From IMG/VR virus record IMGVR_UViG_3300025108_000029, positions 1 to 64,000 of that record: a stretch of DNA of 64,000 nt; one strand, given 5' to 3'. The stretch comes from a virus. This document shows positions 27-61,410 of the stretch, in pieces. The notes under the pieces were generated by a model. It made no database searches. It was not told where the DNA came from and saw only the letters and a program-made list of their open reading frames with translations. How positions within the stretch are numbered: position 1 is the stretch's first letter; each line of letters begins with the position of its first letter. The translations under genes were made by a program, and so were the position numbers.

Positions 27-171
27 CCATAGCACGACCCCATAGCACCCCCCTTAGAAGGAGAAATACCCATAGCACTCCCCATAGCACTTCTTTTAAC
101 CGCACACGGCATTTTAGTAAAAAAAATATTTTGAACATTTTTTATACAAGGAGTCCATAGCAGTGCTATGG
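27..171. repeat. CCATAGCAC repeat array (4 direct copies + palindrome CCATAGCA-G-TGCTATGG) flanking an AT-rich tract
   Basis: CCATAGCAC at 27-35, 40-48, 70-78 and 82-90; AT-rich tract at ~112-146; perfect inverted pair at 155-171 overlapping the ATG at 168. Confidence 0.85.
141..146 (+). promoter_or_regulatory. Archaeal-type TATA box candidate
   Basis: TTTATA 22-27 nt upstream of ATG 168; similar spacing for TTAAATA (1481-1487) before ATG 1510. Confidence 0.4.
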
Positions 172-473
172 CAAACCCATTCGATTTAGCATGGGCGTTG
201 TTAAAAGGTATTACTCGACAAGACGCTATAGAGTGGATAAAGCACTATCAAAGCCAGCATGAAGAAGATAGTGAAGAGTGGTGGAAGGCAGAAGACCAAA
301 TAGACGGAATGAGAGGAACTTATTATGATAGCGAAGGTTTAAGTCGAAAATGGGGACCACCACCAGCAGAATATGTTGAATATGAACCCAAACCACCTCC
401 CGGTTTTAAACCTCTTACACCCGAACAAGCGAGAAGTATAACCTTAGAACAAATTGACACGAATTATGAGTGA
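168..473 (+). CDS. Hypothetical protein with N-terminal PFDLAWALLK tag
   Basis: 101-aa ORF; N-terminal tag shared with neighbouring ORFs. Confidence 0.8.
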   Translation: MANPFDLAWALLKGITRQDAIEWIKHYQSQHEEDSEEWWKAEDQIDGMRGTYYDSEGLSRKWGPPPAEYVEYEPKPPPGFKPLTPEQARSITLEQIDTNYE

Positions 474-1381
474 TTAAAATGACAAGCCCATTTGATTCAG
501 CATGGGCTTTGTTAAAAGCACCAACTTTTCAATCACAGTTGAATACTCCATCGCTTGATGGCGTACAATCGTATTCGGGTGTACCGGGTATAGGTGAACG
601 AATGTGGTATAAACGAAAGGATGCCAAAAATCCAATTCGTCTTCCCGAACAACCAAAACATCTAAGGGATGGTGTAAATAGAGGCTTTTTAAAACCCGAA
701 GTTTTTCACGATTATATAACAGAAGAAATGAAAGCGGAACAGCGGCATCGAAAATTACTCGATGCTAAAGACCGATTTAAACAACAGTTAAATCAACACA
801 TCCCTCGTCTTGAACATCAAAGAGGGAGTTACGGAGTCAAAGTAGGCCCAAGAGATGTAGGTTTAGTAAGCACTACAACCGCAGAACGAGATGACCCGCA
901 AAATAATTGGACATCGCTTGACGAAGGTAAAATAGCAGATGACGCTCAACGACAGGGCTTGTACGGTAGAGCGTTACGAGGTATCATCAATGACGCTGGT
1001 AATTTAACATCGTATGCGAGAAACAGAAACTCGCAACCGTTTCACGAGCAATTTAATCCTATAAATGCAACAAAAAGAATAAACGATATAGATGGTAATG
1101 AAAACTTCGTTGCTAATCGTTTTACCCCATTTAGGCGCAATGATTCTGTTACATACACCGCAAAGCCGCCTAAAGAAACACCTCGTGGGTTTGGAGATTT
1201 GCAATACGATACTGGTGCGTTGCCTGTGTATCAAACACCCATTGAACCACCTAAACCCTACTGGCAAGAATTAGCCGAAATACAACAACAACAACATGGA
1301 CAAAAACCCGCACAACAACAAACTTTAGACCAATACACCTACATTCCAACGCCGGGTGGTGTGACCTACGGTAGAAGGTAA
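470..1381 (+). CDS. Tagged protein (PFDSAWALLK), possible GNAT-like domain
   Basis: 303-aa ORF (likely start ATG 479); segment IADDAQRQGLYGRAL...NRNSQPF resembles the GNAT acetyl-CoA-binding motif. Confidence 0.7.
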   Translation: MIKMTSPFDSAWALLKAPTFQSQLNTPSLDGVQSYSGVPGIGERMWYKRKDAKNPIRLPEQPKHLRDGVNRGFLKPEVFHDYITEEMKAEQRHRKLLDAKDRFKQQLNQHIPRLEHQRGSYGVKVGPRDVGLVSTTTAERDDPQNNWTSLDEGKIADDAQRQGLYGRALRGIINDAGNLTSYARNRNSQPFHEQFNPINATKRINDIDGNENFVANRFTPFRRNDSVTYTAKPPKETPRGFGDLQYDTGALPVYQTPIEPPKPYWQELAEIQQQQHGQKPAQQQTLDQYTYIPTPGGVTYGRR

Positions 1382-3030: not shown

Positions 3031-3189
3031 ATGAACTTGTTTCTTTTGTTTATTGTAGCATTTTTTTTCGGATTTATTTGCGTGTGGTTGCTGACTACAC
3101 CCGACCCTAATGATACTGTAATTTTTATTGAAGACGAAGAGGCTTTTCATAAAGCGTGTTACGAAGGTATGCGGAGGGGTATTGAATGA
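3031..3189 (+). CDS. Small single-TM membrane protein
   Basis: MNLFLLFIVAFFFGFICVWLL hydrophobic stretch; stop overlaps the next start (ATGA). Confidence 0.6.
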   Translation: MNLFLLFIVAFFFGFICVWLLTTPDPNDTVIFIEDEEAFHKACYEGMRRGIE

Positions 3190-4037
3190 AAGTGTCCGTT
3201 TACGAGGTTGGCCCTCGTGACGGATTACAAGGTTTAGAACAACCCGTCAGCACTGAAACCAAAATACAACTTATCAATGCGTTATACAACGCTGGATTAA
3301 AAAATATCGAAGAAACATCGTTTGCTCATCCTCGATTAGTACCGCAAATGGCAGATGCCGAGGATGTTTACCAACAAGGTTCAGTGCTTGTCATGAACAA
3401 GCGTGGCTACGACAGGGCAATGTCAGTTGGTGCAGAAAAAATTAACATTGTTTTTTCACCTTGCGAGACTTTTAACATGAACAATATGGGTAAAACTCGC
3501 AGTGAAATAGTGTTAATGTACAAAACTTTTATGAAAATACCTAAAGAAAATGTTCGTGTGTACATTAGTATGGCTTTTGGTAGCCCTTACAGTGGTGATG
3601 TAGCACCTATGGTGATGAAAAATTGTTTAAACGATGCAAAAATGTTTGGCGATACGGTAGTATTTGCTGATACAATTGGCACTGGTAGTCGTAACGAAGT
3701 AGCATTATGGGCTGAAATGGCTATTATGAAGGGATTAAAACCAGCATTACACTTACATCACAAAGGAAACGAAGAAAAAGCACTGTCTTTAGTCAAAATG
3801 GGACTAATAAGCGGAATAAAAGAGTTTGATTCAAGCATTGGTGGGCTTGGTGGTTGCCCTTTTACGGAAAATAGTGGCAGTAATTTATCCACTGAAACAC
3901 TGGTGCGCCATCTCAACGCATGGGGATTTGACTGTGGGCTTGTTGAAGACGACTTACAGGTAGCGTCAGTCATTGCGACAAGACTTTTATTGGCAGAAAA
4001 AGAAGCCAAACTACCGGTATTACTACAATTAAAATAG
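3186..4037 (+). CDS. hmgL: Hydroxymethylglutaryl-CoA lyase (DRE-TIM family), auxiliary metabolic gene
   Basis: EVGPRDGLQ, ETSFAHPRLVPQMAD, ADTIG, HLH metal motif, GLGGCPF with catalytic Cys, NLSTE. Confidence 0.9.
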   Translation: MKVSVYEVGPRDGLQGLEQPVSTETKIQLINALYNAGLKNIEETSFAHPRLVPQMADAEDVYQQGSVLVMNKRGYDRAMSVGAEKINIVFSPCETFNMNNMGKTRSEIVLMYKTFMKIPKENVRVYISMAFGSPYSGDVAPMVMKNCLNDAKMFGDTVVFADTIGTGSRNEVALWAEMAIMKGLKPALHLHHKGNEEKALSLVKMGLISGIKEFDSSIGGLGGCPFTENSGSNLSTETLVRHLNAWGFDCGLVEDDLQVASVIATRLLLAEKEAKLPVLLQLK

Positions 4038-18178: not shown

Positions 18179-18520
18179 ATGAATGGGGATTTTAAAATGA
18201 AAGAAGACGATAAAAAGAAAAAGAAAGGTATGGTTGTTGTAATTGCACTTGGTGGTAAGCCGCCTAAGTCACCGGAACACACCGCTGACCCCGATGAAAA
18301 GAAAAAAATGGATGATGCTTGGCGATTTTTGAAAGCATATTACACCGAAGAACAAGTGGCTGAAATGGAAAATATGTCACCCGAAGACGCATGGAATCGT
18401 AAAAATGAAATAACTATGGATAGGAACGATAAATGCATGGGTTGTAATAAAACACTTAATTTAGGCGACCTTGAATACGGTGCTTGTTTAGAATGTAAAA
18501 CATCTACAAGCGGTAGGTGA
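18179..18520 (+). CDS. Small protein with internal tag (KMDDAWRFLKA) and C-terminal Zn ribbon
   Basis: CMGC...CLEC; K-rich N-terminus. Confidence 0.75.
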   Translation: MNGDFKMKEDDKKKKKGMVVVIALGGKPPKSPEHTADPDEKKKMDDAWRFLKAYYTEEQVAEMENMSPEDAWNRKNEITMDRNDKCMGCNKTLNLGDLEYGACLECKTSTSGR

Positions 18521-22694: not shown

Positions 22695-22704
22695 GGTGTT
22701 TATT

Positions 22705-23040
22705 ATGACTGAACAATCGGATGCGGAACGATTGATGGGTGTCCTTATTACTAAAATGGAAAGCATGGATAATGACCTTGATTCACTCAAGAGAGAAAAC
22801 ATGCGCCTTCAAAAAATGATTTCAAACCCAACTAAAATGCTTAAAAAAATGGGATTAGTCAAAGCAACTACCCCGCTTACAGAAAATGTCATGAACGATG
22901 CATTCCGAAATGACATGACTGATGATTCAATAATGAAAGGGGTAAACTCTTCTGTTCCCCAAACTAATGAAGAGTTCCATAACATGTCGTGGGAGGATAT
23001 TCACGAAATGGCTCTATCAGCAAAAGAGAATGAGGTGTAA
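22705..23040 (+). CDS. Mini scaffold-like protein (C-terminal NMSWEDIHEMA)
   Basis: GAGGTG RBS; coiled coil; C-terminus matches the C-terminus of the protease/scaffold. Confidence 0.7.
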   Translation: MTEQSDAERLMGVLITKMESMDNDLDSLKRENMRLQKMISNPTKMLKKMGLVKATTPLTENVMNDAFRNDMTDDSIMKGVNSSVPQTNEEFHNMSWEDIHEMALSAKENEV

Positions 23041-26700: not shown

Positions 26701-29555
26701 GGTTACAACGCCGTTCAAGTGAATCTGCTCTTGGTAAACAACCTACACGCTGGAAAACCGATGCTGGTTTTATTGACAAAGTGGCTAAAAATAGTCGTAA
26801 CGCTGTCCTTGAAGCCGCAAAAAAATTATTACCTATAGTTATGGAACATGACCCAAATCATTTTGACATTAACGACCCGGAGAAGTTTATGGCGAATCAT
26901 AACCGTTTAATGTATGACGCTGAACGGTGGCTTGCAAATGCAGACCATAGTGTACACGGTATCAAAGCACCTGTTTACAGAACATCGGATGAAAGTAAAA
27001 CAGTTACTTCAAAGCAAAAAGGCTTTCATCGTGATGTAATGAGTCACATGCTCGACAACAGTTTTGAATTAAACGGTAACATGACACCCGATGAAGTCTT
27101 AGAAGGTATGGGATTAGAAGGTAAGACAAGTCAACAAAAAGCACGATTAAGAGAACATGTACAAAAAATAATTGATGAGTCAAATGTAAGAGAAGTTCCG
27201 TTGCGTGTTGCGACTGTCGGACAGTTAATGACGAGTGGTAATTTTGATGACGAGTTTTCACTTCATCGTATTCACGCTGATGAACAATTCGCTCAAGACT
27301 ATCAAGACGGTGGAATACACACTGCTATTGATAACGCTCAATCGAGAACTAAAAACTGGAAAGCACATCCTATTCATGGTATAGTAGGTACTGTCGGACA
27401 GCATAGATTTGACTCATCGCAATATGGTAGTAATATGTCAAACAACGGTTTATCCTACTATCCAGCCGGTGGTAAACTCGATGTGCATAACAGATTAGGT
27501 GCTGGTAAAGGTGGTAAAAAGCCTTACACGAGAAGAACAAAAAATTACCTTGATAGTATTGTAAGTTTAGATATTGATGCTGTAAATGCTGATAATATGA
27601 CACCTACGCAAGAAATTGTGAGAACGCTTGGTATTAACGGTGAACCAGTACCTATTGGTGGGGTTAATCCTTCTTCATTCGGAATTATGCCTACACACAC
27701 TGGTGCTGATGTAGTCCACTCTTCTGCTGTCCCTCAACAGTCATCATTTGGTATCGAGTTTGATTCTCAAGGACAACCATCGGTCGGTACTTACACTGAA
27801 CCTCAATTATACCATCCTACTTGGCAAGGTGCATTAGAGGAACTCCACGGCACAGATATGACAAATCATTTGTTGGAAACATTACCACCACATCAAAATC
27901 CTACTCCACCTTTTATGGATTATGACAAAGAAACTTTTGATATATTCGGAGAAAACAACCCTACTGCTCTTAACTTGAGTGAAATGAGTGAATATATTAC
28001 TTCTCTTTTAAATCCCGATGTGCTTTTGACAAAAGCCGATGATGCTGAATGGTGTCCTCCGGTAAGACCGATGCACCGCATATTCGATTTAAGTGACCTT
28101 GAACACCTAAGAGGGTTTAGCGGTTCATGGGTAGTCAGTAAGTGGTACGATGGTAAGCGAGTTATTATCGTACAAAACGATAATGAAATCACTACTTATG
28201 ATGAAAATGGGCGCAAGGTTGGATTAAAGAAAGCATTCAAAGAAAGCCTCGCTGAATTAAACGACAATAACTTTGTCATTGATGGTATTGTAGGTGAAGA
28301 AGACTTGAACATTATTGATATTATCAACTATGATGATACCAATGTTGCTGAAATGTTAATGCATGAACGCATGAAAGTTCTAAGAGGGCAGTTCGATAGC
28401 CATGAAAATGTCATCATTCCCGGCCCGCATGATACAAAAATGACTGATGATGAGGGTCTTGAAGACGCTGTTAAAATCCTACAAGAAGACCACGGTATAG
28501 TTTTGTTACGAGATAATAAATCCACATACATGAAAGGAGAGCGTCGTCATCCTAAGTGGTTGTTATTGCGTGAAAGTCGTGATTTTAACTTTATCATTCT
28601 TGACCGTCGAGGTAAAGGACCATACACATATCAACTTGGTGCAGGGCCGATTCTTGACGGTGAAGCATTAGGTAATCGTGCCGTCACATACAAGAACAAT
28701 TTCTACATGGATGTAGGTACAGCCCACAGACAACAAAGAACCTTCAAAGTTGGCGATATAGTAAGAGCAACTGTAACAGGAGTTACAAAAAAGCGTAGAA
28801 AAAATCGAGATGTGTTCAATGTACAAGTGCGTGAAATAGAAAGTGAAGGTGAAGGTGAAGGTGCGGCCAGTGCTGAATCATTAGACCTTATGACAAAATC
28901 GTTTGCACCTTTGCTTATACCCCATGATATAGAATACAATGATGGTGTATTACAAGTTATACTCAAAGGTGTAGATACAGTATCGTATCAAGTTACACAT
29001 ATGGATGACAACTGGTATCTACATGACCCTTCTTCGGCTTTAGGTGATTTGACTAAATCGAATTATTCTCTCACTCTTGCTGAAAGCCTTCATCCGTTTT
29101 GGCATTCAGTAGCACCGTTGATGCTTGACGGTCATCTCGTAAAAACAGAAATGGATGAAAAGAAAGTGCCAAGTCGTAAAAGACAAGAAGAACAATCAGC
29201 CGGAGTTCTTGATGCTAAAGACGATAACCGCCTTCTTAAACCATCAACTAAGAAGGCTCTTGATGTAATTAGTCGTGCTTTAGACAGACTCGCTAAAGAA
29301 AAACTTACTTGGACAGGGCCGAAAGGTTTGGGTATTGACATGGCTACACCGGTAGAATCACCAAGTGGTCCTACGAGATTAACAGAAGAAAGTAACTTAC
29401 CCGACTATGATGGTAAAGTAAGACCGGATGAAAAGGATGGTGTTGATTCGGATGATAAAAAGAAAAAACCCATTACGCATGTTGAAATGAAGACTGATGC
29501 AGACGAGTCTATCGTTTTAGATGATGAAGACGGTACTCCTACTCTTTCAGTGTGA
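23709..29555 (+). CDS. 1948-aa head-module protein with C-terminal degenerate ATP-dependent DNA ligase fold
   Basis: SKWYDGKR, FVIDG, NIIDII, YMKGERRHPKW and OB-like YMDVGT...VGDIV in ~28030-28900; His-rich unknown N-region. Confidence 0.8.
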   Translation: MVAEQFNIAKDELLLSLADGNDLAFSAAEYIIAWESLNKAPTDTLSKSLKYTAELIQKEEDKAAKVEKVKSYKEGPGFLLAHHHTHGEQTNHVWKDSLSGADNVRESHAVWPRYVPTSSHPYREHNYPFHHTNHPLLRMDSSKGNAGYVEVLRSHIFGGHSKEEAQMEKEFQKYLETKKSPLVHGYNGKKILGSLRHHKSNYSHQHDLYERDYQRWNKLNSDLKDQYLADGRSAEETENRLRVDHFNQRAKQWQSGGYVVDENGDNHAVGLGQEGYHLGLEWLNPEERTAVMRHLHEKGVDNHNEIKLPNGEFIPTARLTWNNLMRRTPEKNWALRASGHFGPNGHLRQETLEGDFRQGDNRFSQGVIGEAAHTYEIGGQPISHYIAEAIHNRFGIELPDGDNEGVGKPFDILPRLGLHSKPVQDSYSLKDLRAGTFKHYKKSKGMDPKHTRMPMEDVLFLAGYDPKTRKPLLNHPIYGEMDGPIIPLHDLEQMESEAKSHGSLSSLAKEMRTDLAYLQSPHGPHPDEEKPKFWRFDKGGNHTIGPAKFWSKPFAQVGGADMTLATYNENVHSVAHNEDELTEEEKIEQAYANIASNEPVDITGGAQNEDTAHIPTPFQQKKKDMSSPSTSGLFEVNEQHHGQLHPNPINMALGMHFGPEKSREIGQVEKQKGGATKFVRFQDGDILQNLFSPANAFTKTSSGDKHNWTLHQSTYNPQLLHSLRTMSNDEKKKLKVDTIKQTLHSHNPLKTSQPESTYGAHTSDAPIGEKARANHWRKTMLGQTLDPYKPQKNSVQPLKDLMSGNIPVSFGVDHEDYMDFLGWGVKQPNFNNVKNYITSPDSAKALRILTAIAKETGSNSPNRILNNINDLTEDNPMYADIKHRMEKEGSYLNDGDIDELKGWLNSFEVQLRQKKGKEAEAKNQRSKTSIQATEDTTFTTRTIDSALKFGGMLPAMQKEKELSERLNVITEMIQYMDSPEQVQSLRRELDEGQVELNRLQRRSSESALGKQPTRWKTDAGFIDKVAKNSRNAVLEAAKKLLPIVMEHDPNHFDINDPEKFMANHNRLMYDAERWLANADHSVHGIKAPVYRTSDESKTVTSKQKGFHRDVMSHMLDNSFELNGNMTPDEVLEGMGLEGKTSQQKARLREHVQKIIDESNVREVPLRVATVGQLMTSGNFDDEFSLHRIHADEQFAQDYQDGGIHTAIDNAQSRTKNWKAHPIHGIVGTVGQHRFDSSQYGSNMSNNGLSYYPAGGKLDVHNRLGAGKGGKKPYTRRTKNYLDSIVSLDIDAVNADNMTPTQEIVRTLGINGEPVPIGGVNPSSFGIMPTHTGADVVHSSAVPQQSSFGIEFDSQGQPSVGTYTEPQLYHPTWQGALEELHGTDMTNHLLETLPPHQNPTPPFMDYDKETFDIFGENNPTALNLSEMSEYITSLLNPDVLLTKADDAEWCPPVRPMHRIFDLSDLEHLRGFSGSWVVSKWYDGKRVIIVQNDNEITTYDENGRKVGLKKAFKESLAELNDNNFVIDGIVGEEDLNIIDIINYDDTNVAEMLMHERMKVLRGQFDSHENVIIPGPHDTKMTDDEGLEDAVKILQEDHGIVLLRDNKSTYMKGERRHPKWLLLRESRDFNFIILDRRGKGPYTYQLGAGPILDGEALGNRAVTYKNNFYMDVGTAHRQQRTFKVGDIVRATVTGVTKKRRKNRDVFNVQVREIESEGEGEGAASAESLDLMTKSFAPLLIPHDIEYNDGVLQVILKGVDTVSYQVTHMDDNWYLHDPSSALGDLTKSNYSLTLAESLHPFWHSVAPLMLDGHLVKTEMDEKKVPSRKRQEEQSAGVLDAKDDNRLLKPSTKKALDVISRALDRLAKEKLTWTGPKGLGIDMATPVESPSGPTRLTEESNLPDYDGKVRPDEKDGVDSDDKKKKPITHVEMKTDADESIVLDDEDGTPTLSV

Positions 29556-29595
29556 AAGAAACATTCTATATACCATGACAATGAATCGGAGGGTA

Positions 29596-30987
29596 ATGTT
29601 GTCCTTAAAGCGACCCACCTCCGGCATTGCTCTCATTAAGGGCAGTTCCGATATGGTTATCGCTGGCTACGCATCAGTTGAACTGGTGGACAAGCAAGGC
29701 GACCTTATTACTCGTTCAGCACTAAAGGATGCATTTGGCGGATTCATGAAGAGTGAGAAGTTCCGTAATGTTCAACTCGCTCACTCAAATATTCAAGTTG
29801 GAGAAGTTATTGACTCCTATGTAGATTCAAATGGTCGGATGTGGAAGTCCGAAGTTGATGATGCCGGTATGTTTGTCGTTGTTTCACTTCGCAACGATAT
29901 TGAAAAGGCTCGTGAAGTGGCCGCAGAAATCCGTAAAGGTAATCTGCAAGGATTTTCCATCGGTGGACAAGCATTCAAGAGAGTGCGAAAATCGGATGGG
30001 GAACATGGAGACTACCAAGAAATTAGTAAAATGGAACTGCACGAAATAACGATATGTGAAAAAGGGATTAACCCCGAAGCGCAGTTTCGTATTTTAAAGG
30101 AGGACACCCACATGACAACAGAAAATGATTTGAATAATGTAATGAGCAGACTTGAAGCACGACTTGACGCTATGGAAAAAGGCGAAATGCCTCCCGGCCT
30201 TAAGGAACATATGAACGATAAAAAAGACGATTCCGACGATGAAAAGAAGGAAAACCCATTCGCCGCAAAAAAAGACGAAGAAAAGGATGACGAGGATATG
30301 AAAGACGACAAAATGTATGCAAAGAGCGAGTACAGTGATGTAATTACTGCTGAATACCTAAACTGGATGGAGGACACTCTCAAATCCGCTGGTGTTGACA
30401 CTATGCAAGCACGAACACACTTCGATAATTTGGAAAAGGCGCAACTTGGCGGCTTCGACAACCCCGATGCTGTTGATGGTGCTGACTACTTCGCCGGACA
30501 AGTCCGAGGTCGAGGTCAAGAAAACGGTTCACCTTCAACCGGTGCAATCTCCGCAATCTCTTCAACTGGTGGTAAAACACCATCCGGCGCACTTGGGCCT
30601 GTTTCAATGGCTAAGGGTTACATTAACCCAAGCAATGTTTCAGCATCCGATGTTGAAGCCGCTTACGAAGTTTACAAAGCCGCCGCAATGGAACAAGGAT
30701 TCCGTGGCGACCTTGAATCTCAATTCGCATCTCGCTTTGCAGAAGAACAAAAAATTGCAAAGCATGAAGCAGAAAAAGCCGAGTTCGACGCTCGTGCGCC
30801 TCTTAACGAAGTCATGAAGTCAATTAACGCACTAAGTGAGCGTATTGATAACATTGGTATTCAAGGAACATCAATTCAAAAGTCGGCTTCTTCATCTAAT
30901 GTTGAAGTCCCATCCACACAAGACTTGAGTAACATGTCTTGGGATGAAGTACACAATCTCGCCGGTTCGGTCATTCGAGGGGCTTGA
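29596..30987 (+). CDS. Prohead protease (HK97-type) fused to scaffold
   Basis: IAGYASVELVDKQGD, QLAH, GFSIGG, LHEITICEKGINPEA; GGAGG RBS before ATG 29596; immediately upstream of the MCP. Confidence 0.9.
   Translation: MLSLKRPTSGIALIKGSSDMVIAGYASVELVDKQGDLITRSALKDAFGGFMKSEKFRNVQLAHSNIQVGEVIDSYVDSNGRMWKSEVDDAGMFVVVSLRNDIEKAREVAAEIRKGNLQGFSIGGQAFKRVRKSDGEHGDYQEISKMELHEITICEKGINPEAQFRILKEDTHMTTENDLNNVMSRLEARLDAMEKGEMPPGLKEHMNDKKDDSDDEKKENPFAAKKDEEKDDEDMKDDKMYAKSEYSDVITAEYLNWMEDTLKSAGVDTMQARTHFDNLEKAQLGGFDNPDAVDGADYFAGQVRGRGQENGSPSTGAISAISSTGGKTPSGALGPVSMAKGYINPSNVSASDVEAAYEVYKAAAMEQGFRGDLESQFASRFAEEQKIAKHEAEKAEFDARAPLNEVMKSINALSERIDNIGIQGTSIQKSASSSNVEVPSTQDLSNMSWDEVHNLAGSVIRGA
30112..30987 (+). 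CDS. Nested in-frame scaffold protein (internal start)
   Basis: AAGGAGG at 30097-30103, then in-frame ATG 30112 right after the protease domain; coiled-coil/acidic product. Confidence 0.6.
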   Translation: MTTENDLNNVMSRLEARLDAMEKGEMPPGLKEHMNDKKDDSDDEKKENPFAAKKDEEKDDEDMKDDKMYAKSEYSDVITAEYLNWMEDTLKSAGVDTMQARTHFDNLEKAQLGGFDNPDAVDGADYFAGQVRGRGQENGSPSTGAISAISSTGGKTPSGALGPVSMAKGYINPSNVSASDVEAAYEVYKAAAMEQGFRGDLESQFASRFAEEQKIAKHEAEKAEFDARAPLNEVMKSINALSERIDNIGIQGTSIQKSASSSNVEVPSTQDLSNMSWDEVHNLAGSVIRGA

Positions 30988-30994
30988 AAATAAA

Positions 30995-31025
30995 AAAAAA
31001 ATAATGGAGAGTGAAATATATGGCA
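30995..31025 (+). promoter_or_regulatory. Conserved 5' leader, copy 1 (MCP)
   Basis: AAAAAAATAATGGAGAGTGAAATATATGGCA, nearly identical to 32132-32162. Confidence 0.7.
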
Positions 31026-32120
31026 CGAGACTACATACGAAGCGTAACTGACATGGAACGGTACTTTTACGGTGCTGGTAATGCAATGGGATATTCCTAC
31101 AGCGGTAGCGAATTGCTCAAGGCTGACAGCCCAATGATGAGTACTACAGCAGGAACTTACCAAGCGATTTATGGTCGCAAGGTTTGGTCGCAATTGAACC
31201 AAGAGTTCAATGCATTCTCAATTCTACCAAAGCGACCTTGGGAACGCAGTGGATGGCGAGTCATCACTGAACGACCTTCGTTCAGCGTTGGTGGCGGTGT
31301 TGCAGAAAACGCAACTCTACCGGACACTACCAAGCCTACCTTCCAACACATTGCCGCAAAGCCAAAGACGATTGTTCACACATTCGACATGAGCGAAACC
31401 GCAATGTTCCTTGCTGACAAGGATGACGGACTGGGTGACATTCGCTCAATCCTCAAAGAAGAAATGGGTAAGCACCACGCCGAGCATATCAATAAAATGT
31501 TGCTCGTTGACAAGGCTACCGTTGCTGGAAACGATTTCGAGTCTCTTGACCGTATCGCTACTGGCCTCGTTGCTGGTTCAGCAGAAGACATCTACTCGAT
31601 TGACCGAAGTGAAAACTCTTGGTCTGTTGCAGAAGAAGACTCCAACGGTGGTACTGACAGAACTCTTTCTCTCGACCACTTGGACAGTATTTTCCAAAAG
31701 TGTTGGACTCGTGGTGGTAATCCAAAGGTTATCCTCACTGGATATGACACTTTGATGCGCCTTCAACAACTTCTACAATCGCAACAGCGTTTCATGGAAG
31801 AAAAGCGTATCACCCCTACCTACAATGGTGTTAAGGGTGTACCGGGAATTGAAGCAGGATTTATCGTTGCTACTTACAACGGTGTTCCTATCATCCCATC
31901 TAAGGATGTTCAAGCAGACACATTGAGCCGTATGTATTTCCTCGACACGGATTACCTCTACTTCTCTACTGCTATCCCAACGCAATACTTTGAGTCCGGT
32001 ATCGAAACCGGCGACCCATTCGCAATCAACCGTCTTGGACAAGAAGGAATGTATCGAACTATGGGAGAACTATGGACTACTTTCTTCGGAGGACACGCTT
32101 CAATTCGTGACCTAAAGTGA
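31020..32120 (+). CDS. Major capsid protein (HK97 fold)
   Basis: Follows protease/scaffold; ~366 aa; GGGVAENATLP, KPKTIVHTF, YNGVPIIPS; predicted leader ending LLK34|A. Confidence 0.9.
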   Translation: MARDYIRSVTDMERYFYGAGNAMGYSYSGSELLKADSPMMSTTAGTYQAIYGRKVWSQLNQEFNAFSILPKRPWERSGWRVITERPSFSVGGGVAENATLPDTTKPTFQHIAAKPKTIVHTFDMSETAMFLADKDDGLGDIRSILKEEMGKHHAEHINKMLLVDKATVAGNDFESLDRIATGLVAGSAEDIYSIDRSENSWSVAEEDSNGGTDRTLSLDHLDSIFQKCWTRGGNPKVILTGYDTLMRLQQLLQSQQRFMEEKRITPTYNGVKGVPGIEAGFIVATYNGVPIIPSKDVQADTLSRMYFLDTDYLYFSTAIPTQYFESGIETGDPFAINRLGQEGMYRTMGELWTTFFGGHASIRDLK

Positions 32121-60200: not shown

Positions 60201-60560
60201 TCATACATTCGTGCCACCAACCCCGACACTAATCCACCTTACACACCTGCGTATTACATGGACATTAGTGCAAGTGACACTGTGCCTATGAGTAAAGGCC
60301 CAAAAATCATCGGAACGGCTGACAGCGGCTTTGATAGTAGTAAAATTGACAATGAAGTTACTCGTGTAATTATCAGTGAGAATACTTTAGAACATTACCG
60401 TTCCGATGCATCACGCCGCCGTACATCTGTAGAAAACGATGAGACTATTGTTCGTAAGGACTACAGTGTACAACCACGGTTCAGTCAAGCCTTACATCCA
60501 AAAGGACATAAAGGAGATGTCTCCTACAACTCAACAGACCACAGTGGTGATGGCGCATGA
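42213..60560 (+). CDS. Giant 6115-aa tail/adhesin protein with N- and C-proximal LamG (concanavalin-like) domains
   Basis: N: FFFDG...FVIEAWV...YHVVAG...LYVNG...FRGAIE; C: LWLKADSL...WKDSG...NGKIAEVIQYN...VEGYLAEKYG; uninterrupted 18.3-kb ORF. Confidence 0.85.
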   Translation: MVGIGRTSNAFFFDGVTDSILIPQGNFTSVGPARDILGKTSRGGDEFTHINSIMDDSFVIEAWVVPDCGGIVAHRDEQFTLEFGTVDTPGPAKFTVQLKTQSGMHPVSLSTAKATSTRWDGVVYPPQEVGGIHDTYNRYLKDNTAYNDATNLNFKHRGLYHVVAGVTAGSVFLYVNGHVVATQEIDIESRIADSTAHVYIGGKGGEFRGAIEAIHFNSEFDSQMAVSTVPVNSDTTKGMYRFEEPLDIVEESYDFNAFTVAADGTTTTITVAATDAQALIARLTGKPYDSTSATTTFTATPYSMGNYKVTDFATTPGTEATLAIPHTPYNILINPGSINRNTEKPNASPPERARIESINGSTGVITVSSIHIDFNISGGKRGLLHSRTADIDNYFVVVNADLLIDNGTGKPYQPPHYGSQIFDKTGQMVIDESNFSQHALVYSTQMATTDNSPSNPFAVSWPSTLDVLYQVGHSGRHRYSHITGHEYMRRYPQPAYLSIDQIMGGTADVVEMGYDSNTKGIADLFAMNALSDFYEESTQVTVANFINSTPATFVVSNGLAKSKEQAIAIGGTNFDYRPFMLKGPVPEFEGDINDDTRLYHLRPESVSRIALLKVPTLQTTHSLAPYVEIHYNAVDLTGASMGKTTPCLMIEKTVPSGNYVLTGSTTVLDVIEADLADATKDTTLFAPGGLIMTGNSQTTTTHHLETEHSLIGDNTGGYELDSEVDFSRCPVNYTPPGNATTDGNTTPQHLTASHNNGVHDSAYHKLCIEPNADNSVKNMTEIGLQSIKPAAVINTGTGVFDEGSTTDASNNFEMFDIIDNVVYNTHEYSGIIFVQPSDRTRTNQLSKMRTNQTEGNSPSIASLLYLMSRTRIRSIKEDEDPGTNEKTVTVLATGIAEGLANQNVNITGSGSPDSHIVKEIEPNAPVVTVTLGGPGQGAINTKPTYDPSPLMRLPGSTRRSCAVQAVSVNTDTDRIYMSVQPLNNLSTDMASWGTYCFPKVGRVYLEDGASAAYSEKTGSGFVFTVDTSGGASIEELRSFLDANGTAYTSFHEWLNGVGIITNATEDEYEISVKLFNDPHFGDDNLCEDGSTVNDRMFQSMDTVNHDYQLGTQYASTRAMVEVPLFPKQFFDHAPTGIFPGPDNSMKIHLDATYTAHSWNPTPVGRRADDIAVSDRNAHSAYGFNANSNEHVSSTTITQIVVSTNHTDIYVSHPKLFPSAESAENQHRNMKDVIRYRRVFLSNNQWGIYQNDPATDGYIRIPTNVSGGFTGGFSEDFFADAIVGALLYVAGGYRNETLIPIASDESTPSSDLENRSPYYYDPANMQTQGGNLDYGLRQYVSAVEFKEGPLTNPHAPRIQSKNASSTILEVNKVSAGLDNNQSLYYFTVDDASTFPEVPFSKIGGYETDSNNPTFGNGDMIFVAEVLTDTPIEMIFLGNIASVSETANQFVCAAPSSFSTTNFKGKTIRLKKACRALYSLTDPANAYINEFSATTFKPSVGGEQWTFTAAGAVGATTLSIAPATATLMPQANTVGINLRPGDELFIEDVSDANHIKYVGKVAFIESPYAGSGHATNTVITLDGTNATTIASGDPLRVSFGTVTENDPDAILNRTWLYPYAQGGLRNGDTIWMNMTMNNPHAVEGLFAKSRGVLSEGQVWTGFNGGKGALATRPRDSIPLENFLIGDSCLETANNFVQHVNKTIELNYESMGLSSSQAPTVAYLDPYLATKGHARVLMFDVAHDREFIAFHDLHMQVQSSAATPHIGFGRHIVTADGIVDIDRYLVQQNGGAPHYFTTQIDVANGFPSENPYMRRTQQSKFIESAYVHNIAGNTSEDVMGTNAGGENPISNFLNHDSYAIPGQGKTKLALIGNSFTEACDTDHAATGTDTHVFGGNVRIIRLNGTIGIRLSKFSVGMTVSGTGIASGSKIIEIDINAGLLYLDKDTTATNSNQTLTFTTTNNSYFMGKGHGHYVHTGFMNEGTSSSFTVADSTLPRVQPAVASPYWADRLHALSRKSLGATQTLAGALKKSRLANNPDTFTLRDASTMMDTPDGTRAISAFLCLKGIRSQSLLLSNHEESRLQHLDHWSKMDFVRRLTIDFGEVGIKEGVTDIEAAAREIVRLINQGGAKNALTTGAMNADTGSIHDPAPWWFADEAFDTQDRGSHMGYLRAHLGRVVEDLDGNTGHSIVIHSTIPGASGRNFCTWLDNSKGQSQYKPQFLIGHGGRFRNFWCQPDETSGENMHPAPMPINKHGRPFAPITTLREYVTQEETDDNFVSNGDFDVRQNDLSSTIQGRNTKRSISAFNGSGMNANTINDESFESQSPSKTLVEGLRTGTQAVGRINFGGMVAAGIPGFAPDAGVWGLGERGNTDFDTRYSNAISTGNTAPTSIADYSDHVTDSQVENVGDGQLYGFQFEDHRGNNYGVRYIYRDMGTNFSNDNTILPPTLDNEICVYFDDRDVGQGGFTIGNHMLGFGDVTGRIDTTGDLTEASYRGNRWNGVPAPSVGIDASVTWSGTELTVVLQAPFDTGGVGDGVMGNHPDVLGYLGFPKTNGLLQINDTFTGTTGYTDADGNAGIKGIVGHTVSYTHRTQNDNNGTHIFYGVVGDTFTSSHFVNSGTVDDTTKVNPTDNVQLRVLLSPRINWTTLVTDELMAAVTAAAINHEDPNRLLNFDCREMYAADGRTFGQWGVAPDAIKIRAHTPSRNTLPLSQMFEATLHKDWGIQAAHLEYGEYTTLHETTVGWTLVATDPINKPYSDAELDSHRRMDVGYLPYTVLQLRSKGRGFNANTATPVLVDSSNTPLSVTSWRRNLKGENYTSITGDHILPCLNNPILLFNNYDSTGGNIENEFVSKTNKIAHAIIPAGQEADSIDSLAKEGSFGEELVFSYATADGIARGAVKSIKSTVSHTSLTYTDGHGNGLWRTAFNGDVNDDFVLTRFAEPNQPGIEREAICGYRSYGSVDSEPIIFFRGARDSIDHSVPLYFGGGFTGVTLDINDGTQNDYSPFYTHPYSGGPTGTAGIQNANEISGSFAMVDCNALLAFFPGTALLNQHRGSINSPVSNKDSILSPDLRGGNLDADFALLNAAAAGDVRARYAAGIVRQQPVPLVLRFAHPTARYHDSQPIVDATCDINSNTTVNMDSTAQLVVGMTVTGAGIPDGATVASITDATTFVLSAAATASTDPVTLTFNYIENKTTYLVYGPGQAFPFTEDDNSNAAVEPHPGYVVTTGNTWSKVPHSKFLPNEITNSDNLYGPPDSTYQTARQRYHWRTTLNWSPPQGIPNVGYLQQRPEHGSHYGEVFTNPTAGKLTSDNAADYYKAHPYKHSAVAYYGIAMSADMTFHMDGGYHPGGSWLDNQMSFNAPNPNSNYRYALESWNQVNATAFRVSGVMAKTILEGANSETALNFDSDYIVVDGTRCQNGEELATIIGQAINENPGKGALKAMGGTFLPSMGNAMRQDRYGWIETNFVSYNNLADDLLGKVFSGEAFDDTTGDVDNSEVHIVATITGATQAELEQIPACGWIRTDTGGRDYTETDVAEADRYIKSSFGCYHSREIWNDSGTYKIKFYLAPNRISGLPLLEDITTWHNKCQSATMTFPTPGYDPGGGGLVHPSPSNIYVWSKAGVHRFNNENESSRNHMTQVHFGGLVDAIDRTRPVGAVGWAGERYSYLNSLKVGTEGYGAGKGAWHPKMGFTPYGSSASCMSVLGHLPSSYPMYNSPEASPRVNGQEASNVSYDVALTTPYTWNIGLVGGDTWYDNYDFTDVESTKDIMSAKPPHILEATDSNTSYILDKKLHHQQGVFSRAMLVISNESELALVAKTDRDGITATGDWLSVVSKTRAGVAAATAITFAGTTRWDERFHNAERYIAPANAGPNVEALIATGTATPTADVPNAAYVLHTALTGDQDANLYNAEPCFAVTGDLFFDTDISPGTMLLEDVTNVTRNITKELELSSTDAEIDNYDYTNDDYWLGDTNGYKLSQRTPAQNFSIEHVVWKRMDGGNLSLPAPNARGLGAVPFVTRVAGGNAYTTGEKLYGNNRFTFESTNSAMFPIIQAQELSHPQMASRHPDLLRNILEIPNEEIQFESITVVDDTGQEHTVEGGSPFGTIIRAFTQLSNRSAQGLAPAISGSGVEPNMKIRLPDPDSIPGNLIVRSGFDRLQAYQTETMGTGGMMTKSTVEHMFDNSLVSPNLGPTYSDHNWEHLKQGSDNPESTMSGWQSSTGNAPLETAYELHDRTLFFHVTKMGNTNTHKHPVIYSHADGVVNHELTGVSFSGTTLTVNTSVNSAVYDSTFGNKERVGERRFLRLYNPTTDEGGVASFTGISGSTFTGCVGDEAFNKLVLSSITTLKVVPSYYIPAGSTRFYGSRRIRDHAEVSGNSPDMAHTHYVNYSVTAEEAMTGYSIYKKPQLTPAPIPRMGHHFVNATMAMLPGHWAHPAYQGLYDKHRACRAATLQSDEFTILDERFDMDDLVTLGSASVHRFPTYDPLLVFGSLTATPSGPSDIHGGGFSLMFETKLRNDGYGVLASEGDAGVTNSKGGHTVVLEAAGNYTLKEHFPDPAEVGAYQIIIQPNMHSSQFIGYHANGPANDVPNGSVSELTSQQVALVVGIREPDSRYGAYALVLANATMADVRGCEIFVNELMIDHDPDHGSHFTNIPPLMLYNPLGVQATESPAFVRRSLPYYPSMFVDATPGFTTNIPWWSIVHKVGPDNADADRFNHLSWHRLDNYYEFLRASSGSIASQITLAGYPSFYPDLYSEILENISLTPVCSVVSVASTIITVDDARGFPKQPYYGMVLEYTDATGTRRTHTYTERSGYDSSLMNKPKQFTIVANSTFTNNLTVGTKLRLSRAYDFRPANTILSDSKTSIINQTLSQTLAGSRDTNSLHMADAFLCLWHPNLGRPHTFYSDASRTWLNPLTDRAINQKPLNSMPEHFETVHYHDATYYASIGPFALRMKTAMPPTEAQSTYYTATSASVSGTTVTATGAIMAGWPTSGTNTVYVNSGSEEEIFTYTGGGAGGTTLTGCVNVKGTPLTTMASGNHSLRYYKTADLAADGSHTRQVVSHTGNTITTNGGEVIADEAYIFVDGRMYQVNGTVAEGGTSVVVFDTLPPQIAVGSIIYTDADGTPQTAQTIDTTIGTGLMQGGQSDSTDTATKSMLNHFWPSGSRGGPLVSRLDGYAYVSSTWDYPRDYGFDGPIWSDADDDGSYAVSSGISKSSYDGISNPTRPRPFGYRFGLRQPYNKPQWSMYGLRALRETAVTATNASVGYTHGPLVQTETQTSTYAGGDGSSTSTFPNTYTGIMERQTNFSGMLGVDKPEWQVRYSDGVRFTRPFGCPIRTLRNSATVLRDWWGDGNGKGLDSIEDAAKYYIVDWWGNTRGEDVRRFPVRSFGIRPSWDAGDAYEYDRRNNRTPYQRIHNNGNHLVNLKGLTNAADTALSVSATLPRFGGRLNNTNNNDTNTLVDVFMPSNAQRVGDMGNGRGIRYPTQFNEDILTALSEPIHTTGLVLSHHTAEPILNDGFIRARNDVLQNTEVPRGISSRLEIAEDGLLKPEAVVSDRIENIVGDSPHKDAVSRSSPRIGLDTENLQGVDTNQIIINTEAHSLHTDRNVGQRVVLQGGMQTGSQTIGNYDLTALDFGGQPQGGAVRMSHTSNFNPLGGTYLAETRNFLSPVDDTDWGGIPTSGMVLWLKADSLDLADGAAVSSWKDSGPYGFEFTQSTASNQPSYIASSSNVNNMPVVDCDGDDKLETSFDARLNTAEMTVFVVAWADSDDGGIHGIIESRAGSPATRSGFNLYIRMDSNNRWQWWGGADTGWATVSSATNSAVGGQAELVTASITGGDGNGSTATLKMNLQGAGNYTTTSAFWKADTGGYIVGNVPSSFYLNGKIAEVIQYNRSMTTEEERQVEGYLAEKYGFSSNPSQWKSSNPYHTDTNGHVRTNVTDKKVTYMMRPVRMMDKQHIEMFRSNLNLHSSSPQVGSNYFGATAGGKYGLYVYDVDNGKASVGSYIRATNPDTNPPYTPAYYMDISASDTVPMSKGPKIIGTADSGFDSSKIDNEVTRVIISENTLEHYRSDASRRRTSVENDETIVRKDYSVQPRFSQALHPKGHKGDVSYNSTDHSGDGA

Positions 60561-60895
60561 TTGAATACGACTTTTGTAATTGTTGTACACCAATGGAAAA
60601 TGCGTTTGCTTTGATGAAGGCAAAGAAAAAAAGTAAACCATTTCACGGTTATAACCCAAACAAGCACAGTCCAAAGGGTGGACTGAACGCTAAGGGTCGT
60701 GCCGCCGCCAAGCGCAAGAGTGGCGCAAATCTCAAACCCCCTGTGACAACTAAGCCAAGTAAACTCAAGCCCGGCTCAAAGAAGGCCAAGCGTCGTAAAT
60801 CATTCTGCGCTCGTATGAGTGGCATGAAAGGCGCAACGAGTAAGAAAGGTAAATTAACACCGAAAGGGGCTTCTCTTAAACGGTGGAACTGCTGA
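60557..60895 (+). CDS. Small basic phage protein (GGLNAKGR...RRKSFCARM) with tag PMENAFALMKA
   Basis: Motif family common in marine phages; very K/R-rich. Confidence 0.8.
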   Translation: MIEYDFCNCCTPMENAFALMKAKKKSKPFHGYNPNKHSPKGGLNAKGRAAAKRKSGANLKPPVTTKPSKLKPGSKKAKRRKSFCARMSGMKGATSKKGKLTPKGASLKRWNC

Positions 60896-61410
60896 TGACT
60901 CCAATAGATAAAGCATGGGTTTTCCTCAAGGCATCACGCCAAATGAAGTTGTACAACTACATAGAAGATTACCCCGGTAAAGAGCCTGTAACTGCTTACC
61001 GTGGAGTACCGTTCTTAACTACACAACCTATGGATGCTACACAATGGCATCAAAAAAATACCCCAATTGACCTTGACAGGAAAGGAACATGGTGGGCTGA
61101 AGGTGGGGCAGAACCACACGCTACTGCTTCGTTTTTTTCTCGAATGCATCCGAATGGTTTTACGCGGGAGGATGATAAGCGAGGCATTATATTAGGACAC
61201 AGGGGTAGATTGGAAAATATTGGGGATGTTCAGCGACGACAAAATGAGTGGAATCCTACTAACGATGCTAAAATGGATGAAGCGTTTGTTTCTCATGACC
61301 GACCTTTTGATTGGGAAAACATTGTATTTTCACAACCTTCTTACAGTGTTACAGATTCTATGAATGAAAATGAACATGATGAATGGTTAATGAACATGAT
61401 GAATGGTTAA
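60895..61410 (+). CDS. Tagged protein (PIDKAWVFLKA), possible ADP-ribosyltransferase-like fold
   Basis: ATG overlaps the upstream stop; AYRGV...TWWAE...DEAFV spacing. Confidence 0.65.
   Translation: MTPIDKAWVFLKASRQMKLYNYIEDYPGKEPVTAYRGVPFLTTQPMDATQWHQKNTPIDLDRKGTWWAEGGAEPHATASFFSRMHPNGFTREDDKRGIILGHRGRLENIGDVQRRQNEWNPTNDAKMDEAFVSHDRPFDWENIVFSQPSYSVTDSMNENEHDEWLMNMMNG
61371..61410 (+). repeat. Exact 20-nt tandem duplication
   Basis: TGAACATGATGAATGGTTAA x2. Confidence 0.9.

What the first reader, a model, noticed from the sequence alone, without database searches (positions are those of the whole stretch)
168..61410. Genome-wide peptide tag (P-[MF]-D-x-A-[WMF]-x-L-L-K) on unrelated proteins: candidate capsid-loading and protease-release system
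Seen: 14 copies in 12 otherwise dissimilar ORFs. N-terminal or near-N-terminal: PFDLAWALLK (168), PFDSAWALLK (470), AFEAAWMLLK (1510), PFQKAWTLLK (2483), GMDSAFDFLEK (18517), PMENAFALMK (60557), PIDKAWVFLK (60895). Internal: PMDLAWQMLFK (4315-4365, minus strand), three in ORF 5630, PMADAWSSLLK (~12847), KMDDAWRFLK (~18305), PMRDAWSILK (~34394). A weaker IAWESLNKA occurs in the 1948-aa protein. The tag reads as an amphipathic helix ending in hydrophobic-hydrophobic-K, like the MCP leader (SELLK|A) and scaffold sites. Established: T4 internal proteins use a short N-terminal capsid-targeting sequence removed by the prohead protease, and Listeria phage A511 capsid protein is processed at a Lys-Ser bond. 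Inference: this tag docks diverse cargo into the procapsid, where it is cut after K, so the virus would inject a modular effector/DNA-binding payload into an archaeal host. I do not know of such a system described for archaeal viruses.
Basis: partly seen in the sequence, partly recalled or inferred. Interest (0 to 1): 0.93.

Follow-up and report, generated by a model that had tools for sequence, protein, structure and literature searches.

The report
Shared address tag on magrovirus proteins
An abundant ocean virus of marine archaea puts the same 10-12-residue helix in front of, between or behind hundreds of unrelated small proteins; it is most likely a docking label that loads them into the virus head, but neither loading nor clipping has been measured.

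Summary
The strict motif occurs 7-10 times against 0.03-0.05 in shuffled proteomes, synonymous codons vary, and the 12 carriers share nothing else.

The window is a thermosome-encoding magrovirus (Marine Group II archaeal virus). Across 90 related sources I found 353 distinct tags: 214 at the exact N-terminus (M-x-[PA]-F-D-x-A-W-x-L-L-K), 121 internal (..GEPMD[IL]A[WFM]xLLK..) and 18 near the C-terminus. They sit on modules that form 179 sequence clusters.

Modules fuse and split at the tag; one ORF carries eight. Tags lie only on the structural-gene strand, mostly in a variable island upstream of the terminase. They are absent from replication genes, from halovirus HVTV-1 and from cellular genomes of about 186,000 species.

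Best reading (about 0.5): a capsid-targeting docking helix, functionally like the T4 internal-protein CTS. Cleavage after Lys is not supported here: the MCP "SELLK", the protease junction and the 1948-aa site are not tag matches. An untested rival is binding to the virus's own chaperonin, present in all 9 tagged genomes checked.

Earlier follow-ups in this scan found the same tag in other magrovirus genomes. I found no published description.

The parts
177..206 (+). Tag PFDLAWALLK at the N-terminus of ORF 168-473 (MAN-PFD..)
   Evidence: 33.3 bits
488..517 (+). Tag PFDSAWALLK at the N-terminus of ORF 479-1381 (MTS-PFD..)
   Evidence: 31.9 bits
1519..1548 (+). Tag AFEAAWMLLK at the N-terminus of ORF 1510-2478
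   Evidence: 29.0 bits
2489..2518 (+). Tag PFQKAWTLLK at the N-terminus of ORF 2483-2713 (MQ-PFQ..)
   Evidence: 27.9 bits
4318..4350 (-). Internal tag PMDLAWQMLFK, residue ~407 of the 490-aa ORF 4096-5568
   Evidence: 21.8 bits
6509..6538 (+). Internal tag 1 of ORF 5630-7747 (SE-PMDITMRLLK)
   Evidence: 19.2 bits
6761..6790 (+). Internal tag 2 of ORF 5630-7747 (GE-PMDLAMQLLK)
   Evidence: 25.6 bits
7487..7516 (+). Internal tag 3 of ORF 5630-7747 (SE-LMDIAMRLLK). It lies directly before a phrog_6437 module that stands alone in cyanophage S-CBS2 gp045.
   Evidence: 16.1 bits
12847..12879 (+). Internal tag with a one-residue insertion (GE-PMADAWSSLLK) in the core Arg-rich protein ORF 12439-13731, upstream of the terminase
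   Evidence: 7.5 bits. Orthologues in G001, G002 and G004 carry canonical tags.
18305..18334 (+). Internal tag KMDDAWRFLK in ORF 18179-18520, just after TerL
   Evidence: 17.8 bits
18553..18585 (+). Degenerate tag GMDSAFDFLEK in ORF 18517-18720. It lies directly before a small basic module (LCPAGKAAAKKKFDVYPSAYAN) that in pelagiphage and cyanophage is a whole protein starting MAKLCP..
   Evidence: 4.0 bits
34394..34423 (+). Tag PMRDAWSILK near the C-terminus of the core head-module protein ORF 33869-34552, followed by a variable Zn-ribbon module
   Evidence: 21.1 bits; alignment A3
60590..60619 (+). Tag PMENAFALMK in ORF 60557-60895, before a DUF6321 module
   Evidence: 17.3 bits; Pfam
60901..60930 (+). 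Tag PIDKAWVFLK at the N-terminus of ORF 60895-61410, whose core has an ADP-ribosyltransferase-like fold
   Evidence: 25.3 bits; A2; AF2; fold searches
29521..30987 (+). Prohead protease (Peptidase_S78, HK97 type) fused to an acidic, helical scaffold-like C-terminal half. This is the candidate processing enzyme and candidate receptor.
31011..32120 (+). Major capsid protein (HK97-like), a candidate receptor surface
30934..30954 (+). Second shared peptide, MSWDEVH, 10 residues from the C-terminus of the protease-scaffold
22984..23004 (+). The same second peptide (MSWEDIH), 11 residues from the C-terminus of the 121-aa ORF 22675-23040 next to the portal gene

Best explanation
The tag is a virus-specific, 10-12-residue amphipathic helix, P-[FM]-[DE]-x-A-[WFM]-x-[LV]-L-K. 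Its hydrophobic face has F, A/W and L at positions i, i+3/4 and i+7. Magroviruses attach it as a portable address label to small, soluble, fast-changing accessory proteins.

Most likely it docks these proteins to an internal component of the assembling procapsid: the scaffold half of the protease-scaffold protein, the inner MCP surface or the portal region. They would then be packaged and enter the next host cell with the DNA. [quoted passage not shown]

The tag is also the joint at which modules are fused into, or split out of, longer 'beads-on-a-string' ORFs. Cutting after the invariant Lys by the S78 prohead protease would free the modules. That is plausible but is the weakest link: I put it at about 0.35, given packaging.

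Shown here: the motif, its enrichment, its peptide-level conservation, its modularity, its genomic distribution and its restriction to this virus lineage. Inferred: docking, packaging, cleavage and delivery.
For: 1. Census. There are 353 distinct tags in 90 sources: 214 exact N-terminal (the start codon is 2 codons upstream in 156 and 3 codons in 41), 121 internal and 18 C-terminal. They precede 318 modules that form 179 BLAST clusters, 129 of them singletons. [quoted passage not shown]

2. Number and position. Four genomes carry 12-19 tags each, against 0 in shuffles. All tags are on the strand of the structural genes, mostly in one island directly upstream of the basic protein, ORF725, TerL and portal. 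None is in the opposite-strand replication module.

3. Core tagged gene. ORF 33869-34552 sits inside the head-tail gene block. In 10 of 31 orthologues the protein ends 1-3 residues after the tag; in the others, diverse Zn-ribbon modules follow. The tag therefore has a function of its own and also serves as a plug-in point.

4. Fusion and fission at the tag. The same module families occur behind N-terminal and internal tags (cluster 0: 13 N-terminal, 15 internal). G004:40-3600 has 8 tags in one ORF of at least 1200 aa. P0015 is an upstream-extended form of the ORF 60895 family joined by an internal-type tag.

5. The tag is added to modules that exist untagged elsewhere. Three small basic families (phrog_27331, DUF6321, phrog_6437) are free-standing proteins in pelagiphages and cyanophages. 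In the T7-like phage P-SCSP2, two of them lie between the scaffold and capsid genes.

6. Structure. In the AF2 model of ORF 60895 the tag is a helix with pLDDT 48-61, set apart from a confident core. In ORF 33869 the tag helix (pLDDT ~55) follows a long disordered linker.

7. Cargo types fit known packaged effectors. The ORF 60895 core gives an almost pure list of ADP-ribosyltransferase folds (best Z 5.7; the list includes a cyanophage pre-ejectosome chain), compare T4 Alt. Other modules are NUDIX, HD and Zn ribbons. Only 5 of 318 modules have TM-like segments.

8. The tag is not copied from the host. The exact DNA pattern gives 29 scattered singletons in 596 Gb of cellular genomes, none a real N-terminal tag. 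IMG/VR gives 56 stretches, and 15 of 15 contigs tested are magroviruses.

9. No C-terminal tag ends at K itself; at least one residue always follows. This is weakly consistent with a scissile or capped K-x bond.
Against: - There is no protein-level datum: no virion proteome, no neo-N-termini, no binding data.
- The structural proteins carry no tag match. The MCP 'SELLK', the protease-junction 'FRILK' and the 1948-aa site all score below 3 bits, so nothing here ties the tag to the protease's specificity.
- HVTV-1, the nearest cultured relative with homologous MCP and protease, has no tag at all (0 hits at or above 6 bits).
- C-terminal tags make little sense for a pure cleavage signal.
- Most modules are acidic (58% pI<5.5), unlike classic DNA-condensing internal proteins.
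- All 9 tagged genomes checked also encode a chaperonin, an alternative receptor.
Confidence: 0.5

Rival explanations
1. The tag is a short linear motif that recruits proteins to a non-capsid hub. The concrete candidate is the virus-encoded group II chaperonin (thermosome subunit). On this reading the tag would feed fast-evolving orphan proteins to a dedicated folding machine, or gather them at another viral or host complex.
For: - A chaperonin gene (Cpn60_TCP1) is present in all 9 tag-bearing genomes checked, including 6 that are 98-100% complete.
- The tag is a generic hydrophobic-face helix that could fit many grooves.
- It works at N-terminal, internal and C-terminal positions, as a binding motif would.
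- An earlier scan note (untested here) reports that group B magroviruses use a different tag, MxWx[DNE]ILK; Philosof et al. report GroEL in group B.
Against: - Tags occur only on the late or structural strand, never on replication proteins. Yet the chaperonin sits in the replication module and was proposed to serve it (PMC5434244).
- That paper reports chaperonins in only 12 of 26 magroviruses.
- I know of no precedent for an address tag for chaperonin clients.
- The exact tag pattern is not found as an N-terminal tag in cellular genomes, so it is not a host client signal.
Confidence: 0.2
2. The tag is mainly a polyprotein processing signal. Long multi-module ORFs are cut at each tag by the S78 protease or a host protease to release small proteins in the cytoplasm, without capsid targeting.
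For: - Beads-on-a-string ORFs carry 3-8 tags spaced 100-170 aa apart.
- The same modules occur as separate ORFs.
- Lys is invariant, and at least one residue always follows it.
Against: - 214 of 353 tags are at the extreme N-terminus of single-module ORFs, where cutting off 12 residues would serve no releasing purpose.
- A 10-residue conserved helix is far more than a protease site needs.
- Tags that end a protein release nothing.
Confidence: 0.12
3. The conserved tag-coding DNA acts chiefly as a recombination linker: microhomology that lets modules be swapped between genomes. The peptide would be a passenger.
For: - Modules are shuffled exactly at tags.
- Codon choice in the tag is skewed relative to the genome (L8 TTG 56% against 15%; L9 CTC 38% against 7%).
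Against: - All synonymous codons occur at every conserved residue.
- Within one orthologous family the tag varies freely in the x positions while A, W, L and K are kept. Selection is therefore on the peptide.
- Thirty bases of imperfect identity are a poor recombination substrate.
Confidence: 0.05
4. Chance, or a paralogous family sharing an N-terminal domain.
For: None beyond the short length of the motif.
Against: - 7-10 observed against 0.03-0.05 expected.
- 289 hits against 2 in shuffles across all loci.
- No similarity between carriers once tags are masked.
- The modules form 179 clusters.
Confidence: 0.01

Closest known systems
Capsid targeting sequence (CTS) of phage T4 internal proteins IPI-III (and Alt), removed by the gp21 prohead protease
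   Same: - A short (~10 aa) conserved N-terminal peptide is the only thing shared by a highly diverse, fast-changing set of small proteins (PMC3012670).
- The genes are clustered and late.
- The cargo includes an ADP-ribosyltransferase-like protein.
   Different: - No sequence similarity.
- The protease here is HK97-type S78, not the T4 gp21 type.
- The tag also occurs internally (up to 8 per ORF) and at C-termini.
- About 12-19 tags per genome.
- The tag's end does not match any demonstrable cleavage consensus in the MCP or scaffold.
- The host is an archaeon.
- Packaging is unproven.
Encapsulin cargo-loading peptides, and the C-terminal capsid-targeting tail of the HK97 prohead protease
   Same: A short terminal peptide docks cargo to the inside of an HK97-fold shell. 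It needs no cleavage and tolerates many cargo types. This virus has an HK97-like MCP and an S78 protease.
   Different: - Encapsulin peptides are usually C-terminal and Gly/Ser/Leu-type, not a W-centred helix.
- Here the scaffold's own conserved tail is a different peptide (NMSWDEVH), shared with one other protein, and it is not a PSSM match to the tag.
Packaged anti-restriction (Dar) proteins of phage P1, and the processed ejection or inner-body proteins of giant phages (phiKZ, SPN3US)
   Same: Sets of accessory proteins are incorporated into heads during assembly. Some are processed by the prohead protease and are delivered to the host (PMC12810830; PMC7411985 and PMC10052503 listed).
   Different: Those systems have no single portable peptide shared by all cargo. 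Incorporation is hierarchical or uses larger propeptides.
Amphipathic F-x-x-x-W-x-x-L docking helices (e.g. p53 TAD-MDM2)
   Same: Same spacing of the hydrophobic triad in a short helix that inserts into a groove (recalled from memory, not tested).
   Different: A physical analogy only, with no evolutionary or functional link.

Membership tests
T4-type capsid targeting sequence system | One short conserved terminal peptide shared by otherwise unrelated proteins | tested here: met
   353 tags on 179 module clusters; carriers are dissimilar once tags are masked
T4-type capsid targeting sequence system | Tagged genes are hypervariable between related viruses and clustered with the late or morphogenetic genes | tested here: met
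   129 singleton clusters; ORF 1510 has no relative in IMG/VR; the island lies upstream of TerL on the structural strand in 4 genomes
T4-type capsid targeting sequence system | Tagged proteins are present in proheads or virions | not testable with these tools
   No proteomic data; no cultured virus or host
T4-type capsid targeting sequence system | The tag ends in the prohead protease's cleavage consensus, which is also found in the MCP or scaffold | tested here: inconclusive
   Only [LIM][LM]K is shared. MCP SELLK and protease-junction FRILK score below 3 bits. K-A-D aligns between the magrovirus and HVTV-1 MCPs, but the mature N-terminus is unknown because the relevant paper is not held.
T4-type capsid targeting sequence system | Homology to the T4 CTS and the gp21-type protease | tested here: not met
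   The protease is Peptidase_S78 and the tag sequence is unrelated. This is therefore an analogue, not a member.
Encapsulin / HK97-protease-type cargo-loading peptide | HK97-fold shell plus a short terminal peptide on the cargo | tested here: met
   MCP homologous to HK97-like halovirus MCPs; terminal tags
Encapsulin / HK97-protease-type cargo-loading peptide | The peptide binds the inner shell surface, or resembles the scaffold or protease tail | tested here: inconclusive
   The scaffold tail NMSWDEVH is conserved and shared with ORF 22675-23040, but it resembles the tag only loosely ([AS]-W-x-x-[LIV]) and is not a PSSM match. No multimer modelling was available.
Viral polyprotein cleavage signal | The same site recurs between independently folding modules that also exist as separate proteins | tested here: met
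   3-8 tags per ORF; module families occur behind both N-terminal and internal tags
Viral polyprotein cleavage signal | Cleavage products observed | not testable with these tools
   No proteomics
ADP-ribosyltransferase fold (cargo ORF 60895-61410 only) | ART core fold | tested here: inconclusive
   The VIA-align top 50 is almost all ART-fold chains, but the best Z is 5.7 and the best Foldseek probability is 0.54
ADP-ribosyltransferase fold (cargo ORF 60895-61410 only) | Catalytic R-S-E or H-Y-E triad | tested here: inconclusive
   R36, G37, H75, S79 and E129 are invariant in 23 homologues, but they were not mapped onto a known active site

The most novel reading that the evidence does not exclude
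The tag is not a capsid label. It is a client-address signal for the virus's own chaperonin or another viral hub. This would be a virus-encoded 'folding or assembly line' that lets magroviruses keep a large, rapidly turning-over repertoire of orphan proteins functional. Such a tag-directed client system is not known for any chaperonin.
Probability: 0.12. Interest if true: 0.9.

Novelty: new variant of a known kind. Interest (0 to 1): 0.75.

Why it matters
Magroviruses are among the most abundant viruses of the surface ocean, and neither they nor their hosts are cultured. A single portable peptide that marks 12-19 proteins per genome gives three things:
- a sequence-only way to list the probable virion cargo or effector repertoire (ART-like, NUDIX, HD, Zn-ribbon and small basic proteins) of an uncultured archaeal virus;
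- a testable case of convergent evolution of T4-like cargo loading in an HK97-protease lineage infecting archaea;
- a potentially useful 10-residue handle for loading foreign proteins into HK97-type shells.

The beads-on-a-string ORFs and the plug-in point on a core head protein show how such repertoires are built and exchanged.

Tried and rejected
- Host mimicry: the exact tag pattern in 596 Gb of cellular genomes gave only 29 scattered chance-like hits, none a real N-terminal tag. Rejected.
- A Poseidoniales handle via the viral thermosome: the search for related loci found nothing, and 'relatives' is not available for virus records. A fuzzy, host-targeted search was therefore not done.
- HVTV-1 as an experimentally characterised proxy: the whole genome has no tag. 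The paper with HVTV-1 N-terminal sequencing is not held.
- Tag equals protease site in MCP or scaffold: scores are below 3 bits. The conserved NPEAQF[RS]ILKED is largely the canonical end of the S78 domain.
- In-cis docking: AF2 of the core tagged protein ORF 33869-34549 gave a confident 65-aa N-domain, a disordered linker and an unplaced tag helix (pTM 0.37). Foldseek of that model gave nothing.
- Pfam and PHROGs on the 12 window carriers were almost empty. Pfam on 120 module representatives gave only 9 families, one member each.
- Pfam on the 1948-aa and 6115-aa ORFs gave nothing.
- Group-B-type tags (W-x-x-I-L-K at N-termini) are not present in these genomes.
- Literature: three magrovirus papers do not mention any N-terminal motif. 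A search for archaeal-virus capsid targeting gave nothing relevant.
- ORF 1510 relatives in IMG/VR: none found.
Full report
**What the window is.** The window holds a head-tail virus morphogenetic block:
- TerL at 16676-18166
- an HNH endonuclease at 19221
- the portal at 20519-22294
- a protease at 29521-30987
- the MCP at 31011-32120
- a tail-tube protein at 36959-38860.

The protease is HK97-type Peptidase_S78, followed by an acidic helical scaffold-like half. The MCP is 37% identical to that of haloarchaeal virus HVTV-1 and has 594 relatives in IMG/VR. The whole record is 77,150 bp. Its last 13 kb carry an opposite-strand replication module with PolB, primase, clamp and a thermosome-type chaperonin. 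This gene set and order match the thermosome-encoding magroviruses of Marine Group II archaea described by Philosof et al. (PMC5434244).

**The observation.**
- The strict regex occurs 7 times against 0.03 in shuffles, and the gapped form 10 times against 0.05.
- Codons differ between copies. Over 358 copies, all synonymous codons are used at each conserved residue, so the conserved object is a peptide.
- With tags masked, the 12 carriers show no similarity to one another.

**How far it extends.**
- A degenerate DNA scan of IMG/VR for PFDxAWxLLK found 56 stretches, often several per contig. In the 84 instances read (PF[DE]xAWx[LM][LM]K), the start codon lies exactly two codons upstream in most, and the downstream sequences are unrelated.
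- A PSSM built from these finds 289 hits at or above 12 bits in the loci held at that point, against 2 in shuffles.
- After de-duplication there are 353 distinct tags in 90 sources: 214 N-terminal, 121 internal and 18 C-terminal.
- The N-terminal flavour is M-x-[PA]-F-[DE]-x-A-W-x-[LV]-L-K. The internal flavour is ..[ST][TRK][GS]E-P-M-D-[IL]-A-[WFM]-[RQ]-L-L-K...
- All 15 tag-bearing contigs tested carry a magrovirus MCP, 65-83% identical to the window's.
- HVTV-1 has no tag at all.
- The same DNA pattern in 596 Gb of cellular genomes gives only 29 scattered hits. The PFDxAWxLLK-coding ones lie mostly in short or junk frames, and none is an N-terminal tag. The tag is therefore a lineage-specific viral invention, not a borrowed host signal.

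**Modularity.**
- The 318 modules of at least 40 aa behind tags fall into 179 BLAST clusters, 129 of them singletons. Median length is 115 aa. 58% are acidic and 18% have pI>9. Only 5 have TM-like segments, and 11% are Zn-ribbon-like.
- Pfam recognises only NUDIX, HD, DUF6321, a DnaJ-type Cys domain, Zn ribbons and DUF6381 among 120 representatives.
- The same families occur behind N-terminal and internal tags. Long ORFs carry 3-8 tags every 100-170 aa: window ORF 5630 (three tags), a G001 ORF (four tags) and G004:40-3600 (eight tags).
- Three small basic modules are free-standing proteins in pelagiphages and cyanophages, starting where the magrovirus tag ends.
- In the ORF 60895 family the tag varies freely at the x positions while A, W, L and K are kept. 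One homologue is joined to an upstream module by an internal-type tag.
- The core head-module gene ORF 33869-34552 has a conserved 95-aa N-domain, an acidic linker and the tag. In 10 of 31 orthologues the protein stops 1-3 residues after the Lys. In the rest, different Zn-ribbon modules, or a second tag plus module, follow. No C-terminal tag ends at the Lys itself.

**Genomic distribution.** Three 98-100% complete relatives (G001, G002, G004) and the window's genome carry 12-19 tags each, against 0 in shuffles. All are on the structural-gene strand, mostly in one 10-20 kb island immediately upstream of a basic Arg-rich protein, ORF725, TerL and portal. None is in the replication module.

**Structure.**
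- AF2 of ORF 60895-61410 (23-sequence alignment, pLDDT 81) puts the tag in a helix of low confidence (48-61), separate from a confident core.
- The core's fold-search lists are dominated by ADP-ribosyltransferase and NADase folds: RES toxins, ParT, DarT, diphtheria and cholix toxins, PARPs, Tpt1 and a cyanophage pre-ejectosome chain. Scores are modest (best Z 5.7).
- AF2 of the core tagged protein shows a confident N-domain, a disordered linker and an unplaced tag helix, with no fold match.

**Interpretation.**
- The anatomy is that of a portable docking helix. The conserved residues F2, A5, W6 and L9 form one face, P-x-D caps the N-terminus, and a Lys ends it.
- The closest known system by behaviour is the T4 CTS. 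There, a diverse, fast-evolving set of internal proteins shares only a short targeting peptide that loads them onto the scaffolding core (PMC3012670). P1 Dar proteins (PMC12810830) and giant-phage ejection proteins (papers listed) are looser parallels.
- Several features fit packaging: restriction to the late strand, the position next to the packaging genes, a core tagged gene in the head block, small soluble cargo including an ART-like protein, and absence from replication proteins. None of these shows it.
It rests on the invariant Lys, the always-present following residue and the beads-on-a-string ORFs. The structural proteins carry no matching site, and a tag that ends a protein cannot be only a cleavage signal.
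- A rival I could not refute is binding to the virus-encoded chaperonin, present in 9 of 9 tagged genomes checked. The late-strand restriction argues against it, and the literature reports many magroviruses without a chaperonin.

**Relation to earlier work.** I found no mention of the motif in three magrovirus papers or in a search on archaeal-virus capsid targeting. Within this scan, the same tag has already been noted and followed up in other magrovirus genomes, with the same provisional reading. One of those notes says that group B uses a shorter tag, MxWx[DNE]ILK, resembling the scaffold tail.

Testing that lead here, I found a second shared peptide, NMSW[DE][DE][IV]H. It lies at the C-termini of the protease-scaffold and of a 121-aa protein next to the portal. 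It resembles the tag of this genome only loosely and is not a PSSM match.

**Verdict.** It would be a functional analogue, not a homologue, of the T4 CTS, with new features: internal and C-terminal copies, multi-tag ORFs, an S78 protease background and an archaeal virus.

Noticed in passing
window 22984-23004 and 30934-30954: A second shared peptide, ..[FL]xNMSW[DE][DE][IV]H[NE][LM]A.., lies 8-13 residues from the C-terminus of two proteins in G000, G001 and G002: the protease-scaffold and a ~120-aa protein next to the portal gene. G004 matched only in the ~120-aa protein, 25 residues from the stop. It may be the scaffold's own capsid- or portal-binding tail.
   Followed up: partly
window 42213-60560: A single 6115-aa ORF in the tail region has no Pfam match. 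Its N- and C-terminal parts are conserved (42-54% identity) in G001, G002 and G004. This is exceptionally large for an archaeal virus protein.
   Followed up: partly
window 23709-29555: A 1948-aa ORF between portal and protease has no Pfam match and diverges fast between relatives (27-47% over parts). It occupies the position of the large 'zeta toxin' gene of HVTV-1.
   Followed up: no
window 3186-4037: An HMGL-like (pyruvate carboxyltransferase / HMG-CoA lyase family) gene sits inside the tag island. It is untagged and may be an auxiliary metabolic gene.
   Followed up: no
window 18717-19199 and 23043-23696: Several untagged, Cys-rich or basic mini-ORFs lie here, including a DUF5872 protein at 18879-19199. 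DUF5872, DUF6321 and the YPSAYAN-type domain are shared with marine cyanophages and pelagiphages, which points to gene flow across host domains in the ocean.
   Followed up: partly
L081 (Prochlorococcus phage P-SCSP2 11658-12636): In this T7-like cyanophage, the untagged homologues of two magrovirus tagged modules lie between the scaffold and capsid genes. They may be head-internal proteins there too.
   Followed up: no
G004:31961-33097, G010:56568-57707, G014:61220-61786, G015:29002-30132: In-frame stop codons (TAA or TGA) are reported inside the MCP matches of four related contigs. They could be assembly errors, population variants or something else.
   Followed up: no
tag codons in all loci: Codon choice inside the tag is skewed relative to the genome (Leu8 TTG 56% against 15%; Leu9 CTC 38% against 7%; Asp GAC 72% against 31%). 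This could reflect shared descent of tag DNA or a start-proximal codon preference.
   Followed up: partly
L144, L150, L167 (MAG 'Bacteroidota bacterium LC018'): Three contigs of one bacterial MAG match the degenerate tag DNA pattern, but none encodes PFDxAWxLLK in my check. The contigs may be mis-binned, or the matches may be chance.
   Followed up: no
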